Positions 1,205 through 5,537 of a stretch of 5,537 nucleotides of DNA are shown one piece after another. Under the pieces are notes generated by a model, which made no database searches, had not been told where the DNA came from, and worked only from the letters and a program-made list of their open reading frames with translations. Source of the stretch: a virus (Duplodnaviria; Heunggongvirae; Uroviricota; Caudoviricetes). The stretch lies in the IMG/VR virus record IMGVR_UViG_3300029686_000254; one strand, 5' to 3'. Within the stretch, counting starts at the first letter, position 1, and every line of letters begins with the position of its first letter. The position numbers and the translations under genes were made by a program.

Positions 1205-1804
1205 ATGCGTAAAGTTTGTGTAGCCATTTTGTCCGCAGCCATCTGTCTGGCCGTATCCGGTGCGCCTGCATGGGCGTCTGAGCAGCCGGCCACACTGAGC
1301 GCAGGGTATCTTCATGCCCGTACGAACGCTCCCGGCAGCGATAATCTGAACGGGATTAACGTGAAATACCGTTATGAGTTTACGGACACGCTGGGGCTGA
1401 TTACGTCATTCAGTTATGCCAACGCTGAAGATGAGCAAAAAACGCATTACAGCGATACCCGCTGGCATGAGGATTCCGTGCGTAACCGCTGGTTCAGTGT
1501 GATGGCGGGGCCGTCTGTGCGCGTGAATGAATGGTTCAGCGCGTATGCGATGGCGGGTATGGCTTACAGCCGTGTTTCGACGTTCTCCGGGGATTATCTC
1601 CGCGTAACTGACAACAAGGGGAAAACGCACGATGTGCTGACCGGAAGTGATGACGATCGCCACAGCAACACGTCTCTGGCGTGGGGAGCTAGCGTGCAGT
1701 TTAACCCGACCGAATCCGTGGCCATTGATATTGCTTATGAAGGCTCCGGCAGTGGCGACTGGCGCACTGACGGTTTCATCGTGGGTGTCGGTTATAAATT
1801 CTGA
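1205..1804 (+). CDS. lom: Lom, outer-membrane beta-barrel protein of the Ail/Lom/OmpX family, with signal peptide
   Basis: 199-aa ORF. The N-terminus MRKVCVAILSAAICLAVSGAPAWA is a typical signal peptide. The C-terminus DIAYEGSGSGDWRTDGFIVGVGYKF matches the lambda Lom C-terminus as I recall it and ends in the terminal aromatic residue typical of OMP barrels. Position immediately after J is as in lambda. Confidence 0.93.
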   Translation: MRKVCVAILSAAICLAVSGAPAWASEQPATLSAGYLHARTNAPGSDNLNGINVKYRYEFTDTLGLITSFSYANAEDEQKTHYSDTRWHEDSVRNRWFSVMAGPSVRVNEWFSAYAMAGMAYSRVSTFSGDYLRVTDNKGKTHDVLTGSDDDRHSNTSLAWGASVQFNPTESVAIDIAYEGSGSGDWRTDGFIVGVGYKF

Positions 1805-1857: not shown

Positions 1858-1868
1858 GTGGAGTGGAT

Positions 1869-4241
1869 ATGGCAGCAGTAAAAATCTCAGGTGTGCTGAA
1901 AGATGGTGCGGGAAAACCAATACAGAACTGCACTATTCAACTGAAGGCAAAGCGTAACAGCACCACGGTACTGGTGAACACGGTGGCCTCTGAAAATCCT
2001 GATGAAGCCGGGCGTTACAGCATGGATGTTGAGTATGGCCAGTACAGCGTCACCCTGCTGGTTGAAGGTTTTCCGCCTTCACATGCCGGGACCATTACCG
2101 TCTATGAAGGTTCCAGACCAGGTACGCTGAATGATTTTCTTGGTGCCATGACGGAGGATGATGCCCGTCCGGAGGCACTGCGCCGTTTTGAACTGATGGT
2201 GGAAGAAGCAGCACGCAACGCTGAAGCCGCCTCTCAGAGCGCAGCGGCGGCAAAGAAATCCGAAACTGCAGCGGCATCATCGAAGAACGCGGCGAAAACC
2301 TCAGAAACGAATGCAGCTAACAGCGCACAGGCGGCAGCGACCTCACAGACTGCATCGGCAAACTCCGCGACAGCAGCCAAAAAATCAGAAACCAACGCGA
2401 AAAACAGCGAGACAGCCGCAAAGACGAGCGAAACCAACGCAAAGTCCAGCCAGACGGCAGCGAAGACCAGCGAAACGAATGCCAAAGCCAGTGAAACTGC
2501 GGCAAAAAACAGCCAGGTTGCAGCAGCCCAAAGCGAGAGCGCGGCAGCCGGTTCTGCGACTTCAGCAGCTGGATCAGCAACTGCTGCGGCTAACAGCCAG
2601 AAAGCTGCGAAGACGAGTGAAACTAACGCAAAGTCCAGCCAGACGGCAGCGAAGACCAGCGAAACGAATGCCAAAGCCAGCGAAACTGCGGCGAAAAACA
2701 GCCAGGATGCAGCAGCCCAAAGCGAGAGTGCCGCAGCTGGTTCTGCAAGTGCGGCGGCTTCTTCTGCCACTGCATCAGCCAACAGTCAAAAAGCAGCAAA
2801 AACCAGTGAAACCAATGCAAAGACAAGCGAGACTGCGGCGACTAACTCGGCGAAAGCATCCGCTGCAAGCCAGATGGCTGCAAAAGCAAGTGAAGACGCA
2901 GCCAGAGAGTATGCAAGCCAGGCAGCAGAGCCGTATAAATATGTCTTACAGCCACTGCCTGATGTGTGGATACCGTTTAATGACTCGATGGATATGATTA
3001 CAGGATTTGGCCCGGGATATAAAAAAATAACAGTGCGCGATGATGTGGTCACTATACCATCCGACAAAATTGTCCCGTTTTCCCGCGCGAGTTCCGCGAC
3101 CTATATCAATAAGTCCGGCGCTCTTACCATTGCAGAAATTAATGAGCCACGTTTTGAAAAAGAAGGGCTGTTAATTGAAGGGCAGAGAACTAACTATCTA
3201 AAAAATTCTAATACACCGGAATTGTGGTACTACCACAGTTTACTGGCGAAAGAGTATGGGGTTGATAATTACGGTTTTAATTATGCAACCGTCACCGTGA
3301 CAGACAGCCTTGTAGGCACAACCAGTAGTTATCAGATTCATAGTGTAACTGGAGAGAACAGGTTTTCTCTGTCCATCGGTGAAACCTGCACTTTTTCTGC
3401 CCGCTTTCGTGGAGTTAATTCACGTTGTCGCGTCCATATATCTCTTGTTATTGGCGAAAATGTTAAAACATCTGTTGATGTATGTCTGGAGCCAGATACA
3501 GGTGAGGTTAAGGCGTACGGTAATAAGGCGCTGGTGACATTCAGAACGGAAAAACAGGGGGACTGGTGTTACTTTGAAACAACATATACCGCCGCAGAGA
3601 ATATTGACGAAGTGGTATGCGGTTTTTTTATAACCAATCCTGAAGATGGTGGTTTTTCTTCTGATTCGTCATTAACAATGACTACGCCGCAAATTGAAAA
3701 AGGGTCATGCGCTTCATCGTTTATTATTTCCGGAAACACACCAACCACGCGCGCCAGTGATATGGTTATTTTTTCAACCAAAAATAACATAAGTTCTGTC
3801 CCTTTAAGCTGTCTTGTTGAAATACATAAAAATTGGGACTCTACGCCAAATCAGGCCCCACGAATTTTAACCACTATTGGCGTGGCGACTAATGATGAAC
3901 AACTGGTATTGGCTTTCAGGACGCCTACAAGTCCGGATGTAGAACCTTTACCTTATGTTCAGTTTGGAGTGAGATCTGCATATCTTAGTCCATCTGTGAA
4001 GGCCGGGCGCAAAATGATTGCTGGTTTTGTCTGTAATAGCTCGACTGAATTTCGTTGCTGTTGTAATGGTTACCTGTCACCTGTTCAGACTTCGTCATGG
4101 AAGAATACCGGAGCTGCACATGAAATACGTATTGGGGGAACTTCTGCTGGAGGAGAACGTCACTTGTTTGGTCACGTTCGTAACCTGAGAATATGGCATA
4201 AAGAATTAACTGATGCGCAAATGGGGGAGAGTATTAAATGA
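1869..4241 (+). CDS. stf: Side tail fibre protein (lambda Stf-like N-terminus, Ala/Ser/Thr-rich repetitive shaft, divergent C-terminal receptor-binding domain)
   Basis: Long ORF ending at TGA 4239-4241. The ORF track starts at GTG 1863, but ATG 1869 is preferred: it gives MAAVKISGVLKDG..., matching the lambda Stf N-terminus (MAVKISGVLKDG...), and GGAG at 1860-1863 sits 5 nt upstream. The first ~110 aa (…RYSMDVEYGQYSVTLLVEGFPPSHAGTITVYEGSRPGTLNDFLGAMTEDDARPEALRRFELMVEEAARNA) are lambda Stf-like. Residues ~120-350 are repetitive AAKTSETNAK-type sequence. The C-terminal ~430 aa are AT-rich and end ...ERHLFGHVRNLRIWHKELTDAQMGESIK, which resembles the end of a concanavalin-A-like/LamG-type jelly-roll domain. 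Confidence 0.9.
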   Translation: MAAVKISGVLKDGAGKPIQNCTIQLKAKRNSTTVLVNTVASENPDEAGRYSMDVEYGQYSVTLLVEGFPPSHAGTITVYEGSRPGTLNDFLGAMTEDDARPEALRRFELMVEEAARNAEAASQSAAAAKKSETAAASSKNAAKTSETNAANSAQAAATSQTASANSATAAKKSETNAKNSETAAKTSETNAKSSQTAAKTSETNAKASETAAKNSQVAAAQSESAAAGSATSAAGSATAAANSQKAAKTSETNAKSSQTAAKTSETNAKASETAAKNSQDAAAQSESAAAGSASAAASSATASANSQKAAKTSETNAKTSETAATNSAKASAASQMAAKASEDAAREYASQAAEPYKYVLQPLPDVWIPFNDSMDMITGFGPGYKKITVRDDVVTIPSDKIVPFSRASSATYINKSGALTIAEINEPRFEKEGLLIEGQRTNYLKNSNTPELWYYHSLLAKEYGVDNYGFNYATVTVTDSLVGTTSSYQIHSVTGENRFSLSIGETCTFSARFRGVNSRCRVHISLVIGENVKTSVDVCLEPDTGEVKAYGNKALVTFRTEKQGDWCYFETTYTAAENIDEVVCGFFITNPEDGGFSSDSSLTMTTPQIEKGSCASSFIISGNTPTTRASDMVIFSTKNNISSVPLSCLVEIHKNWDSTPNQAPRILTTIGVATNDEQLVLAFRTPTSPDVEPLPYVQFGVRSAYLSPSVKAGRKMIAGFVCNSSTEFRCCCNGYLSPVQTSSWKNTGAAHEIRIGGTSAGGERHLFGHVRNLRIWHKELTDAQMGESIK
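2215..2900 (+). repeat. GC-rich low-complexity coding region of stf made of degenerate 42-nt (14-aa) units of the form AAK(T/K/N)SETNAK(S/A/N)S(E/Q)T
   Basis: Repeated peptide units are visible in the translation: AAKKSETNAKNSET, AAKTSETNAKSSQT, AAKTSETNAKASET, AAKTSETNAKTSET. This region explains the spurious overlapping ORFs on both strands. Confidence 0.85.
2421..2798 (+). repeat. Tandem direct duplication, 2 x 189 nt (63 aa), in frame inside stf
   Basis: Copy 1 begins aagacgagcgaaaccaacgcaaagtccagccagacggcagcg... at 2421. Copy 2 begins aagacgagtgaaactaacgcaaagtccagccagacggcagcg... at 2610. The first ~97 nt differ at about 4 positions by eye; the rest of each unit is more diverged. A partial third unit follows at about 2799-2850. 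Confidence 0.85.
4223..4230 (+). promoter_or_regulatory. Shine-Dalgarno sequence for the 93-aa ORF, embedded in the 3' end of stf
   Basis: GGGGGAGA lies 7 nt upstream of ATG 4238. That ATG overlaps the stf stop codon (ATGA at 4238-4241). Confidence 0.55.
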
Positions 4242-4519
4242 AAGATTTAACACTCAAATTTGCAGACAGGGCCGACTTTTCGGCCTTTATGGATAGCACG
4301 GGCTATTATGATGACGAGTCGATGCAGGATGATATTCTTATTGACGTGATAGGTAACGTGTACAAAGAAACCGGAGAACTGACTGAAGATGGCGAACCGG
4401 TATGTGTTAAGGAAGACGGATATTTTGTAAACGTGCGCATCATTAATGATGCAAAAAAATCGTCAATATTCGATGAATACGCGGTTGTTGTTGAACATCA
4501 ACTTCGTGGCTGGATGTGA
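4238..4519 (+). CDS. Hypothetical small acidic protein (93 aa), translationally coupled to stf; possible tail-fibre accessory or chaperone, or anti-defence protein
   Basis: The start codon overlaps the stf stop (ATGA), with an SD-like GGGGGAGA upstream. By my count there are about 21 Asp+Glu against about 9 Lys+Arg, giving a net charge near -12. I recognise no family and it is not Tfa-like. Confidence 0.6.
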   Translation: MKDLTLKFADRADFSAFMDSTGYYDDESMQDDILIDVIGNVYKETGELTEDGEPVCVKEDGYFVNVRIINDAKKSSIFDEYAVVVEHQLRGWM

Positions 4520-4528
4520 GGCAGAAAA

Positions 4529-5233
4529 ATGGCTACATCGACAGTAATTCCTGGAGACATCACCACGCTGAAGGGAGATGTCAGTAAGGCAAAGGAAGAT
4601 ATTTCCTCAATTAACGGTAAAGTATCAACGCTTCAGACTGATATGACCAGTGCAAAGCAGGATATCAGCACCAGATACACAAAAACTGAAGTTGATAATA
4701 AGCTGAAAAACAAAGTGGAAGTGAACGATCTGGAAAGCGGTCGTTATGGCGGAGATTTTTATCCACTGACAGGTCGTGAAGCGTTTTATTTATGGGGATT
4801 GGGCACGACTACAGCGGCGGCAAACCTTTATCTTAATCCTGACCCTGCAATTTCGTCTGTACTGCGGTCAACATCGTCTATCCGCTATAAAGATTCAGTA
4901 GAGACGATAGATTCAGAGCACGCCGATCTCATTTTCAAGCTGCGCCCTGTATGGTACAGATCGCAATGCGAAAATGACAGGCGTGAATGGGGATTCTACG
5001 GATTGATTGCCGAGGAAGTAGGAGAAATTGCTCCTCAGTTTGTACACTGGCGACCAGCTAACGAAGATGATGCTCCTGAAGCTATTTCCAGCAATGGCCT
5101 TGTTGCCGAAGGTGTAATGTACGAACGTCTGGTTGTTCCACTTATTCACCATATCCAGAAACTGACTGAAAGAGTTGATGAACTTGAGTCAGAATTGAAG
5201 TTGTTATCAACTTCCCGAAGCGATATCGGATAA
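4529..5233 (+). CDS. Tail-fibre-like protein with N-terminal fibrous repeat region and C-terminal intramolecular chaperone / autoproteolytic domain (Peptidase S74-like)
   Basis: 234-aa ORF with GAGG 7 nt upstream of the ATG. Residues ~8-70 show roughly 11-residue repeats (GDVSKAKEDIS / SINGKVSTLQT / DMTSAKQDIST), consistent with a coiled-coil or fibre region. Residues 116-121 (SSIRYK) fit the S-D-x-R-x-K serine-lysine dyad motif of the endosialidase/T5 pb1-type chaperone domain. The downstream sequence (LIFKLRPVWYR ... WGFYGLIAEEVGEIAPQFV ... YERLVVPLIHHIQKLTERVDELESELKLL) follows that domain's pattern, including the terminal helix. Confidence 0.8.
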   Translation: MATSTVIPGDITTLKGDVSKAKEDISSINGKVSTLQTDMTSAKQDISTRYTKTEVDNKLKNKVEVNDLESGRYGGDFYPLTGREAFYLWGLGTTTAAANLYLNPDPAISSVLRSTSSIRYKDSVETIDSEHADLIFKLRPVWYRSQCENDRREWGFYGLIAEEVGEIAPQFVHWRPANEDDAPEAISSNGLVAEGVMYERLVVPLIHHIQKLTERVDELESELKLLSTSRSDIG

Positions 5234-5239
5234 AGGAGG
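5234..5239 (+). promoter_or_regulatory. Shine-Dalgarno sequence for the 97-aa membrane protein ORF
   Basis: A perfect AGGAGG lies 4 nt upstream of ATG 5244. Confidence 0.65.
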
Positions 5240-5243
5240 AGTA

Positions 5244-5537
5244 ATGGATATAACACCTTTTCTTCATGCGCTTTGTGCTGTGGCTGCGCAGGTACTGATT
5301 GGTCTTTTTACCGGAAACTGGGTTTACGGGGCGATAGCCGGTTGTACGTTCTTCATTGCGCGTGAACACACCCAGGCAGAATATCGCTGGATTGAAATGT
5401 TCGGGCATGGCAAGCGAATGAATATGCCGTGGTGGGGCGGTTTTGATCCGCGCGCGTGGGATGTGGCAAGCCTGATGGATTTTGCTGTGCCGGTGGTGGC
5501 GTGTCTGCTGGTCTGGCTGTTGGTTAATCGTGGGTGA
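5244..5537 (+). CDS. Hypothetical small membrane protein (97 aa, two predicted transmembrane helices)
   Basis: Strong SD (AGGAGG) and a complete ORF ending at TGA 5535-5537. Hydrophobic segments FLHALCAVAAQVLIGLFTGNWVYGAIAGCTFFIA and ASLMDFAVPVVACLLVWLLV are separated by a charged, Trp-rich loop (EYRWIEMFGHGKRMNMPWWGGFDPRAWD). GC content is higher than in the two upstream ORFs. Family not recognised. Confidence 0.65.
   Translation: MDITPFLHALCAVAAQVLIGLFTGNWVYGAIAGCTFFIAREHTQAEYRWIEMFGHGKRMNMPWWGGFDPRAWDVASLMDFAVPVVACLLVWLLVNRG

What the first reader, a model, noticed from the sequence alone, without database searches (positions are those of the whole stretch)
5244..5537. Small two-helix membrane protein with strong SD: candidate superinfection-exclusion or lysogenic-conversion factor
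The protein is 97 aa with two hydrophobic helices and a Trp/Arg-rich connecting loop, and it has the best SD in the window (AGGAGG). Small membrane proteins next to tail genes in lambdoid phages include known exclusion factors such as Cor, which blocks FhuA-dependent infection. A role in blocking receptor or DNA entry, or as a membrane-acting toxin or immunity component, is plausible but untested.
Basis: inference. Interest (0 to 1): 0.45.

Follow-up and report, generated by a model that had tools for sequence, protein, structure and literature searches.

The report
Conserved membrane protein beside tail-fibre genes
This is a real, strongly conserved 97-residue phage inner-membrane protein that sits next to receptor-binding (tail fibre or tailspike) genes in many unrelated phages, but its function is unknown and it does not resemble Cor or any other characterised exclusion protein.

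Summary
The ORF at 5244-5537 is real: 97 aa, ATG start, and the only AGGAGG in the window. It is under purifying selection (dN/dS about 0.12-0.17). It is a full-length member of the uncharacterised family phrog_1443 and the same gene as phage 21 CPT_21_24. About 35% of complete E. coli genomes carry it. AlphaFold (pLDDT 90.5) gives three helices, not two: a tight hairpin, a Trp/Arg-rich loop, and a third helix. H8, R40, E41 and W72 are invariant.

The K/R distribution places the conserved loop in the cytoplasm. That argues against a Cor- or Llp-style block of an outer-membrane receptor. There is no similarity to Cor, to epsilon15 gp22, or to any holin, Pfam, NCBIfam or PADLOC model.

The main new result is context. 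Homologues lie within one or two genes of an RBP gene in lambdoid, SSU5-like, P2-like, P22-like, epsilon15-like, virulent Agtrevirus-like and jumbo Aeromonas phages. Stand-alone chromosomal orthologues exist in Aeromonas and sphingomonads. In the window the gene has no promoter of its own, so it is probably a late gene.

Best guess, at low confidence (0.3): a generic inner-membrane factor acting on the host envelope, of the exclusion type.

The parts
5233..5241 (+). Shine-Dalgarno sequence AAGGAGGAG. It contains the only AGGAGG in the window and lies 4 nt upstream of the ATG.
   Evidence: duplex with the 16S 3' end -11.6 kcal/mol, the best in the window
5244..5537 (+). CDS of the 97-aa membrane protein (family phrog_1443; same gene as phage 21 CPT_21_24). 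The TGA stop is the last three bases of the window.
5253..5312 (+). Helix 1 (residues 4-23), hydrophobic. It carries the invariant H8 and the Q16 that is conserved among close relatives.
5319..5402 (+). Helix 2 (residues 26-53). The first 14 residues are hydrophobic and pack back on helix 1 after a 2-residue turn (G24-N25). The helix continues as the conserved amphipathic segment R40-E41-H-T-Q44-A45-E46-Y-R-W49-I.
5403..5462 (+). Conserved Trp/Arg-rich loop (residues 54-73: G-H-G-K-R58-x-N-M-P62-W-W-G-G-F-D68-P-R-A-W72-D). The K+R count predicts that it is cytoplasmic.
5463..5531 (+). Helix 3 (residues 74-96), a transmembrane helix carrying the near-invariant D79 and P83.
4529..5233 (+). Upstream neighbour (context): a 234-aa tail-fibre-type protein with a C-terminal Peptidase_S74 chaperone domain. 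Its stop lies 10 nt before the start of the 97-aa gene. It is one of three alternative upstream cassettes.
4238..4519 (+). Context: a 93-aa acidic soluble protein (phrog_1361). Its start overlaps the stf stop (ATGA). It is the direct upstream neighbour of the 97-aa gene in phage 21-type phages.
1863..4241 (+). Context: side tail fibre Stf (PF08400 N-terminal domain, phrog_1419).

Best explanation
The gene encodes a compact three-helix inner-membrane protein that moves between phages as a self-contained cassette on the flank of receptor-binding-protein genes.

In this lambdoid window it is the last gene of the tail-fibre end of the late operon. It is translated efficiently from the strongest ribosome-binding site in the window, so it is made late in the lytic cycle together with the fibres.

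Its N-terminus and its conserved Trp/Arg-rich loop lie on one face of the membrane, probably the cytoplasmic face. There, invariant H8 and R40/E41 with near-invariant E46 and D79 should sit at the same depth in the bilayer and form a buried polar site.

My best guess is that it works alone, probably as an oligomer. It would bind or act on a component of the inner membrane that is conserved across Proteobacteria. This would change the envelope of the infected or lysogenic cell in a way that does not depend on the RBP. The likeliest outcome is an exclusion or protection function: blocking entry of later phages, or shutting down a receptor-glycan pathway.

Shown: the gene is real, conserved, membrane-embedded, RBP-linked, has no promoter of its own in this context, and is unrelated to known families. 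Inferred: the topology, the polar site, the late expression, and the whole functional step.
For: - Real and constrained: phrog_1443 at E = 6.7e-59 over 96 of 97 positions. Median dN/dS is 0.12, and 97% of pairs are below 0.3. It is present in 1906 of 5426 complete E. coli genomes, median 2 copies.
- Fold: pLDDT 90.5, three helices.
- Conserved site: H8, R40, E41 and W72 are invariant, and G29, Q44, A45, E46, D79 and P83 are at least 90% conserved, among 35 sequences down to 30% identity.
- Topology: mean K+R is 5.35 in the loop and 0.5 at the N-terminus, against 0.14 in the hairpin turn and 0.82 at the C-terminus, over 225 family members.
- RBP linkage in unrelated phages:
  - phage 21 and wild lambda-like phages;
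  - SSU5-like PhiR41_1;
  - a P2-like Leclercia prophage, with 0-nt gap after an S74 fibre;
  - phiHAP-1 gp19, after the tail-fibre assembly gene;
  - P22-like Gally and 611R6, between tailspike and int, in 611R6 next to an O-acetylase;
  - epsilon15-like prophages, between tailspike and holins, where epsilon15 has its Wzy and polymerase-inhibitor genes;
  - an Agtrevirus-like 160-kb contig, between two tailspikes;
  - jumbo Aeromonas phage ACP1, just upstream of a tailspike;
  - Desulfovibrio, Comamonas and Chelativorans prophages.
- In 77 of 80 IMG/VR E. coli loci the upstream gene is one of three tail-fibre-module genes. Two of these are S74 tail-fibre-type proteins and the third is the 93-aa protein that follows stf. 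The usual gaps are 10, 12 or 27 nt.
- Module behaviour: homology between lambdoid phages resumes exactly at the SD. GC is 53% against 41-45% in the neighbours. The same alleles follow different fibre cassettes.
- It works without a phage partner: conserved single-gene chromosomal orthologues sit at a fixed Aeromonas locus and in sphingomonads.
Against: - No experiment or homology links the family to exclusion, and PADLOC has no model for it.
- Known exclusion proteins are usually narrow in range and fast-evolving. This family is about 60% identical between Escherichia, Comamonas and Aeromonas, which looks more like an enzyme or a core membrane component.
- The chromosomal orthologues have no consistent partner genes and could have a housekeeping role.
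- RBP genes lie at operon ends and recombination hotspots, so adjacency may reflect where cargo lands rather than function.
- The phage 21 record's note (TMHMM: 2 TMDs, N-in, C-in) would put the loop in the periplasm, contrary to my K/R inference.
- The invariant charged residues could simply be a structural salt-bridge network.
Confidence: 0.3

Rival explanations
1. It is a miniature membrane enzyme, transporter or channel from a cellular family that phages have borrowed. Examples would be action on undecaprenyl-phosphate-linked glycan intermediates, lipids or ions at the cytoplasmic face. Any effect on phage receptors would be indirect or absent.
For: - Conservation resembles an active site (H, R-E, Q, E, W, D) and persists down to 30% identity.
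- Identity is high across classes of Proteobacteria.
- Stand-alone chromosomal orthologues are fixed in Aeromonas (pirin-X-RIO1-two lipid A acyltransferases) and in sphingomonads (after ligA, or immediately before a cyclopropane-fatty-acid synthase gene).
- GxxxG-type motifs in helices 1 and 2 would suit oligomerisation.
- The neighbouring RBPs are mostly of glycan-targeting types: pectate-lyase and SGNH tailspikes, and S74 fibres.
Against: No match to any Pfam, NCBIfam or PDB sequence family. Fold searches return only generic helical bundles. Ninety-seven residues is very small for an enzyme. The chromosomal contexts share no pathway.
Confidence: 0.2
2. It is an accessory lysis-timing protein, such as an antiholin or holin modulator, made at the end of the late transcript.
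For: In known phages, small late inner-membrane proteins are mostly lysis proteins (own knowledge: the T4 t and T7 17.5 holin genes follow the tail-fibre genes). In epsilon15-like prophages and in a Comamonas prophage the homologue lies between the RBP gene and the lysis cassette or further small ORFs.
Against: No holin model matches it. In the epsilon15-like loci examined, separate holin, endolysin and spanin genes lie just downstream, and lambdoid phages carry an S-R-Rz lysis cassette (own knowledge). In P2-like, Agtrevirus-like and jumbo phages it is embedded among RBP genes, far from lysis genes. Non-toxic chromosomal orthologues and loop conservation are unusual for holins.
Confidence: 0.12
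3. It is a membrane-bound helper for folding, maturation or attachment of the neighbouring tail fibre or tailspike.
For: It starts at most 27 nt after an RBP-module gene on the same strand in most E. coli loci. In 60 of 80 of those loci it directly follows a protein with an S74 intramolecular-chaperone domain, as it also does in a P2-like prophage. It arrived together with a different tailspike cassette in an Agtrevirus-like genome whose closest relative lacks it.
Against: The same allele follows three different fibre cassettes, and the RBP types it accompanies are unrelated. That rules out a specific client. Tailspikes of the P22 type fold unaided (own knowledge). Chromosomal orthologues have no RBP nearby. 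No membrane-bound fibre chaperone is known.
Confidence: 0.07
4. It is a membrane toxin, or the immunity partner of a toxin. The first reader offered this as an alternative.
For: It is small and hydrophobic. One homologue lies next to RelE/MqsA-like and Fic genes.
Against: There is no partner gene in the phage contexts. It is a stable single-copy chromosomal gene in several genera. About a third of complete E. coli genomes carry it, usually in 2 copies. There is no PADLOC hit. At 97 aa with three helices it is unlike type I toxins.
Confidence: 0.04

Closest known systems
phrog_1443 (PHROGs family of unknown function); phage 21 CPT_21_24 'putative membrane protein' (UMO75439.1); one UniRef entry calls it Ybl63
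   Same: Full-length HMM match (E = 6.7e-59, positions 1-96 of 97). About 95-96% nucleotide identity. In phage 21 it sits at the same end of the late tail-fibre operon.
   Different: Nothing differs in sequence terms. The family has no assigned function, so membership does not explain what it does.
Cor (N15 gp24, phi80 and T1 Cor): an exclusion lipoprotein that blocks FhuA-dependent infection
   Same: A small gene placed just after tail-tip or fibre genes of a siphovirus. Candidate accessory factor for host-range-related exclusion.
   Different: Cor has a classical lipoprotein signal peptide (…LLSGC) and no transmembrane bundle. BLASTP finds no alignment. The 97-aa protein has no basic n-region, and its IAGC34 motif is not conserved in distant relatives. 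Its conserved loop is predicted to be cytoplasmic.
Serotype-conversion genes beside tailspike genes: epsilon15 gp21 (Wzy-like) and gp22 (polymerase inhibitor, 2 TM), P22 gtrABC, Sf6 and 611R6 O-acetylases
   Same: Homologues of the 97-aa protein occupy exactly this slot in epsilon15-like and P22-like phages, in 611R6 alongside an O-acetylase. Both are small inner-membrane proteins.
   Different: No similarity to gp22. The epsilon15 genes are on the opposite strand, behind a terminator. The homologues run in the same direction as the late genes, and in the window the gene has no promoter of its own. Homologues also occur in virulent phages.
T4 Imm and Sp, HK97 gp15, P22 SieA (inner-membrane blocks to DNA entry)
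   Same: Small single-gene inner-membrane proteins. The T4 examples show that virulent phages also carry such genes (own knowledge).
   Different: No Pfam match to Imm_superinfect or any other model. Those proteins are confined to close phage relatives, whereas this family spans several classes of bacteria and includes chromosomal orthologues.
P2 Z/fun (a non-essential gene between the tail-fibre genes and the sheath gene; blocks T5). Recalled from memory, not checked here.
   Same: phiHAP-1 gp19 and the Leclercia P2-like homologue sit at the equivalent position, after the fibre or fibre-assembly genes.
   Different: The sequence relationship was not tested. The one paper I consulted on P2 hotspots describes only the old/tin locus.

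Membership tests
phrog_1443 (uncharacterised phage protein family) | Significant end-to-end match to the family HMM | tested here: met
   E = 6.7e-59, 197 bits, protein 1-96 against profile 1-96 of 97
Cor-type exclusion lipoprotein | Lipoprotein signal peptide: basic n-region, hydrophobic core, conserved lipobox Cys | tested here: not met
   The N-terminus is MDITP with no K or R. I31-A-G-C34 resembles a lipobox, but C34 is lost in distant relatives and lies inside a predicted continuous helix. N15 Cor has MGKTIIAIGFSLLLSGC.
Cor-type exclusion lipoprotein | Sequence similarity to Cor | tested here: not met
   BLASTP against N15 gp24 gives no alignment at E <= 100
Cor-type exclusion lipoprotein | Blocks FhuA-dependent adsorption | not testable with these tools
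   Needs plating and adsorption assays
Moron (independent transcription unit expressed from the prophage) | Own sigma-70 promoter upstream and terminator downstream | tested here: not met
   No + strand promoter-like or terminator-like site around the gene in the window, in L004 (gene 100% identical) or in phage 21. The gap to the upstream gene is 10 nt. In P22-like Gally a terminator and a 9/12 promoter-like site do precede the homologue, so the feature depends on context.
Serotype-conversion polymerase inhibitor (epsilon15 gp22 or D3 Iap type) | Sequence similarity to, and the same expression arrangement as, epsilon15 gp22 | tested here: not met
   No BLASTP alignment. gp22 is on the opposite strand behind the tailspike terminator. 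Only the genomic slot is shared, and only by homologues, not by the window gene.
Holin | Match to a holin family, or being the only candidate holin of the phage | tested here: not met
   No holin hit in Pfam or PHROGs. Epsilon15-like loci have Phage_holin_8 and Phage_holin_3_7 genes right after the homologue.
Known Pfam superinfection-exclusion families (e.g. Imm_superinfect) and PADLOC defence proteins | HMM match | tested here: not met
   Pfam gives only a sub-threshold PhoR hit (E = 0.093). PADLOC gives nothing for this protein or four homologues.
Integral inner-membrane protein (general class) | At least one hydrophobic helix long enough to span the bilayer, predicted with confidence | tested here: met
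   Kyte-Doolittle 19-residue means reach 2.3. AF2 gives helices 4-23, 26-53 and 74-96 at pLDDT 90.5. Localisation itself was not tested.

The most novel reading that the evidence does not exclude
The family is a very small oligomeric membrane enzyme or ion- or lipid-binding unit of cellular origin. Tailed phages of every morphotype, temperate and virulent, carry it next to their receptor-binding genes. Its role would be to switch off or rewire one universally conserved inner-membrane step, for example undecaprenyl-phosphate-dependent surface-glycan assembly. That would be a generic way to remove receptors or exclude other phages, not tied to any receptor, and of a kind not yet described.
Probability: 0.12. 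Interest if true: 0.75.

Novelty: new member of a known kind. Interest (0 to 1): 0.42.

Why it matters
About a third of complete E. coli genomes carry this gene, usually twice, and nobody knows what it does. Its tight association with receptor-binding genes across siphoviruses, myoviruses, podoviruses and jumbo phages, together with enzyme-like conservation, suggests a general accessory function at the phage-envelope interface. If it excludes other phages or alters surface glycans, it would affect prophage-mediated phage resistance, phage-therapy host range and serotyping. If it is a lysis or assembly factor, it would add a widespread component to well-studied model phages such as phage 21 and wild lambda. 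The single gene is easy to test.

Tried and rejected
- **Rfam.** No RNA family in the window.
- **Literature.** Searches by accession, PHROG id, FIG id, locus tag, 'Ybl63', phage name and topic found nothing on this protein. The Tai paper and the P2 hotspot papers turned out to be irrelevant to it.
- **Lipoprotein idea.** I31-A-G-C34 looks like a lipobox, the phage 21 record notes a 29-aa SignalP signal, and one source's name for an Aeromonas member is 'prolipoprotein diacylglyceryl transferase'. I rejected it because the Cys is not conserved and there is no basic n-region.
- **Ancestral S74-fibre linkage.** Only 611R6 keeps a remnant of the 346-aa S74 gene upstream. Other contexts show none.
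- **LPS-kinase hint in Aeromonas.** The neighbouring gene is a genuine RIO1-domain protein, not a Kdo/WaaP-type match.
- **Domain fusions.** None found. All 150 best representatives are 58-146 aa.
- **Alignment A2.** It was too diverse for the search for related loci, so I used A1 instead.
- **ORF picker.** My first greedy version dropped the gene in many loci and had to be redone.

Full report
**1. The observation**

The window is the distal end of a lambdoid late operon:
- C-terminus of J (31-1137; Ig_GpJ_C, Phage_Tail_Tip);
- lom (1205-1804; Ail_Lom, E = 1e-122);
- side tail fibre stf (1863-4241; PF08400, phrog_1419);
- a 93-aa protein (4238-4519; phrog_1361);
- a 234-aa protein with a Peptidase_S74 chaperone domain (4529-5233);
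- the ORF in question (5244-5537).

The ORF has an ATG start, 97 codons, and a TGA stop that is the last triplet of the window. AGGAGG occurs only once in the window, at 5234. Its predicted pairing with the 16S rRNA 3' end (-11.6 kcal/mol) is the best of any 20-nt stretch on the + strand. The other genes score -5.6 to -8.8. AlphaFold2 with a 30-sequence alignment (mean pLDDT 90.5, pTM 0.75) resolves the first hydrophobic region into a hairpin. The helices are 4-23, 26-53 and 74-96, so there are three, not two.

**2. It is a real, constrained gene**

- It matches phrog_1443 (unknown function) end to end at E = 6.7e-59. It has no Pfam or NCBIfam family.
- The 294-bp sequence is found at 95% identity or more in most of 1906 of 5426 complete E. 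coli genomes, median two copies per genome, always annotated as hypothetical.
- The same gene is CPT_21_24, 'putative membrane protein', in phage 21, and is present in many wild lambda-like isolates. The only other names given by any source are 'Ybl63' and an evident mis-annotation.
- Among 57 distinct alleles the median dN/dS is 0.12, and 97% of pairs are below 0.3.
- A word-indexed search found 575 relatives. An exhaustive profile search found 448 clusters at 50% identity. The 150 best are all stand-alone proteins of 58-146 aa, with no domain fusions.
- Hosts include Escherichia, Salmonella, Leclercia, Aeromonas, Comamonas, Acidovorax, Halomonas, sphingomonads and Desulfovibrio.

**3. Anatomy**

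Among close relatives (57-94% identity) the stretch F-I-A-R-E-H-T-Q-A-E-Y-R-W-I … G-K-R-x-N-M-P-W-W-G-G-F-D-x-R-x-W is almost invariant. Across 35 sequences down to 30% identity, H8, R40, E41 and W72 remain invariant, and G29, Q44, A45, E46, D79 and P83 are at least 90% conserved.

In an antiparallel hairpin with its turn at residues 24-25, residue 8 of helix 1 faces residues 40-41 of helix 2. D79 lies five residues into helix 3. These polar residues should therefore sit at one depth near one membrane face. This is my inference from the helix boundaries, because I could not read the model coordinates.

Over 225 family members the mean K+R counts are 5.35 in the 34-residue loop, 0.50 at the N-terminus, 0.14 in the hairpin turn and 0.82 at the C-terminus. 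By the positive-inside rule the N-terminus and the conserved loop are cytoplasmic and the C-terminus periplasmic. The phage 21 record quotes TMHMM as '2 TMDs, N-in, C-in' and a 29-aa SignalP signal. That conflicts with my inference, so topology needs an experiment. The lipobox-like I-A-G-C34 is not conserved in distant relatives and there is no basic n-region, so I do not regard the protein as a lipoprotein.

**4. Expression context in the window**

The gene starts 10 nt after the stop of the S74 protein. Consensus scans find no + strand promoter-like or terminator-like site near it. This holds in the window, in a chromosome whose copy of the gene is 100% identical (L004), and in phage 21. In L004 the gene is the last intact prophage gene before a tfa remnant and the ybhB-bio region at the lambda attachment site. 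In the lambdoid setting it therefore looks like the last cistron of the late transcript, not a classic moron.

Its GC content (53.4%, GC3 54%) stands out from the 93-aa gene (41.5%), the S74 gene (44.5%) and stf (48.3%). Similarity to many lambdoid phages begins exactly at its SD, at query position 1033, which is window position 5232. It behaves as a separate mosaic module.

**5. Context elsewhere: the main new result**

In 80 IMG/VR E. coli loci the upstream same-strand gene is the 234-aa S74 protein (35 loci), a 346-aa S74 protein (25) or the 93-aa protein (17). The usual gaps are 10, 27 and 12 nt.

Outside lambdoid phages the homologue is again beside RBP genes:

| Phage or prophage type | Arrangement |
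|---|---|
| SSU5-like plasmid prophage PhiR41_1 | stf - 92 aa - homologue |
| P2-like Leclercia prophage | directly after a 939-aa S74 fibre, gap 0 |
| Halomonas phage phiHAP-1 | gp19, after the tail-fibre assembly gene and before the sheath gene |
| P22-like phage Gally | tailspike - terminator - weak promoter-like site - homologue - int |
| P22-like 611R6 | tailspike - O-acetylase - remnant of the 346-aa S74 gene - homologue - int |
| Epsilon15-like prophages | tailspike (SGNH esterase or 'eliminase') - homologue - holins - endolysin - spanin |
| 160-kb Agtrevirus-like contig | between two tailspike genes; the closest phage, pSal-SNUABM-02 (95% identity), has a different first tailspike and no homologue |
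| Jumbo Aeromonas phage ACP1 | intein-containing terminase - homologue - tailspike |
| Aeromonas phage 62AhydR11PP | one gene away from a convergent tailspike |
| Desulfovibrio, Leclercia, Comamonas and Chelativorans prophages | after a fibre or tailspike |

In epsilon15 itself the equivalent slot holds gp21 (Wzy-like) and gp22 (polymerase inhibitor) on the opposite strand. The Chelativorans fibre aligns with the C-terminal domain of the window's Stf.

The same protein alleles follow different fibre cassettes in E. coli. The accompanying RBPs share no common domain. The protein is therefore not matched to a particular RBP.

**6. Chromosomal orthologues**

In five Aeromonas species the gene sits alone at one locus: pirin - X - RIO1-domain gene - two lipid A acyltransferase genes. 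In sphingomonads it follows ligA, or immediately precedes a cyclopropane-fatty-acid synthase gene. Other contexts vary: a porin, an ABC transporter, an MFS gene, ftsZ, a cyclophilin. One homologue lies beside RelE/MqsA-like and Fic genes. No partner gene recurs, so the protein can evidently act alone and is not toxic.

**7. Comparison with known systems**

- There is no detectable similarity to N15 Cor, which is a classical lipoprotein, or to epsilon15 gp22.
- No Pfam exclusion family, holin model or PADLOC defence model matches it.
- Literature searches by every identifier and by topic found no study of it.

**8. Interpretation**

The evidence shows a stand-alone, highly conserved three-helix inner-membrane protein. 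Phages of all tailed morphotypes, temperate and virulent, keep it on the flank of their RBP genes. Here it is probably made late.

I favour a generic action on the inner membrane or envelope with an exclusion or protection outcome, at confidence 0.3. The reasons are as follows.
- The known classes of small membrane genes beside RBP genes are receptor or entry blockers, glycan-conversion genes and holins.
- It occupies the conversion slot in two phage groups.
- It moved together with a tailspike cassette in a virulent phage.
- It functions without partners.

Three things count against this view: conservation is broader than for any known exclusion protein, cellular orthologues exist, and operon ends attract cargo in any case.

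The rivals are:
- a borrowed mini-enzyme or transporter (0.2);
- a lysis-timing accessory (0.12);
- an RBP maturation helper (0.07);
- a toxin or immunity protein (0.04).

The remaining probability is 'none of these'.

The Cor analogy and the emphasis on lysogenic conversion are not supported for this window.

**9. Verdict**

The gene is real and well defined, and it belongs to a known but uncharacterised family. It is not surprising as a sequence, since it is already in databases. The RBP-linked distribution and the conserved polar site make it a worthwhile, easily tested candidate. Interest is 0.42.

Noticed in passing
window 4529-5233: A 234-aa 'mini-fibre'. It has an N-terminal coiled-coil-like segment and a C-terminal Peptidase_S74 intramolecular-chaperone domain, and matches only the last ~240 residues of 1385-aa fibres (phrog_3299). 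In E. coli loci it alternates with a 346-aa S74 protein, or with nothing, between the 93-aa gene and the 97-aa gene (35, 25 and 17 of 80 loci). This looks like a swappable fibre-tip cassette.
   Followed up: partly
window 2388-2841 (inside stf): A 189-bp (63-aa) tandem repeat, 2.3 copies at 84% match, with nested 42- and 21-bp periods. It encodes the Ala/Ser/Thr/Lys-rich 'KTSETNAK' shaft. The long antisense and out-of-frame ORFs listed here (e.g. 2234-2782 on the - strand) are by-products of this repeat.
   Followed up: partly
window 4238-4241; L017 5714-6001; L034 5432-5998: The 93-aa acidic protein (phrog_1361) starts at an ATGA that overlaps the stf stop. It has a distant counterpart (31% over 39 aa, E = 5e-5) between the fibre gene and the 97-aa homologue in Comamonas prophages. 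It may be the chaperone of this Stf type.
   Followed up: partly
window 4238-5537: Sharp composition step: the 97-aa gene has 53.4% GC, the 93-aa gene 41.5% and the S74 gene 44.5%. Similarity to many lambdoid phages starts exactly at the SD of the 97-aa gene, about window position 5232.
   Followed up: yes
L006, L012, L013, L016, L019 (Aeromonas chromosomes), gene near 6000: A single-copy chromosomal orthologue (55-58% identity) sits at a fixed locus between a pirin gene and a RIO1-domain gene, followed by two lipid A acyltransferase genes. No phage genes are nearby.
   Followed up: partly
L051, L063, L068 and L059, L071-L073 (sphingomonad and related MAGs): More distant orthologues lie immediately upstream of a cyclopropane-fatty-acid synthase gene (3 loci, with a 3-nt gap in L063) or immediately downstream of NAD-dependent DNA ligase (4 loci).
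   Followed up: partly
IMG/VR loci with the 93-aa gene upstream; protein P0004: In 4 of 20 phage 21-type loci the stop codon is lost and the protein reads through to 146 aa. The cluster represented by P0004 has 205 member sequences.
   Followed up: no
L159 against L169 (Agtrevirus-like contig and phage pSal-SNUABM-02): Two genomes that are 95% identical differ in the first tailspike: 845 aa plus the 98-aa membrane gene in one, a 1011-aa protein and no membrane gene in the other. The small gene was exchanged together with an RBP cassette in a virulent phage.
   Followed up: partly
L001 5399-8848 (phage 21) and L003 (Lambda_2E9): Directly after the 97-aa gene these phages carry a complete sitABCD manganese/iron ABC transporter operon on the opposite strand. 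This is a sizeable metabolic cargo in the b-region.
   Followed up: no
L002 1973-2586 (PhiR49_1) against window 1205-1804: lom is intact in the window (199 aa, full-length Ail_Lom match) but is annotated as two fragments in the closest phage record.
   Followed up: no
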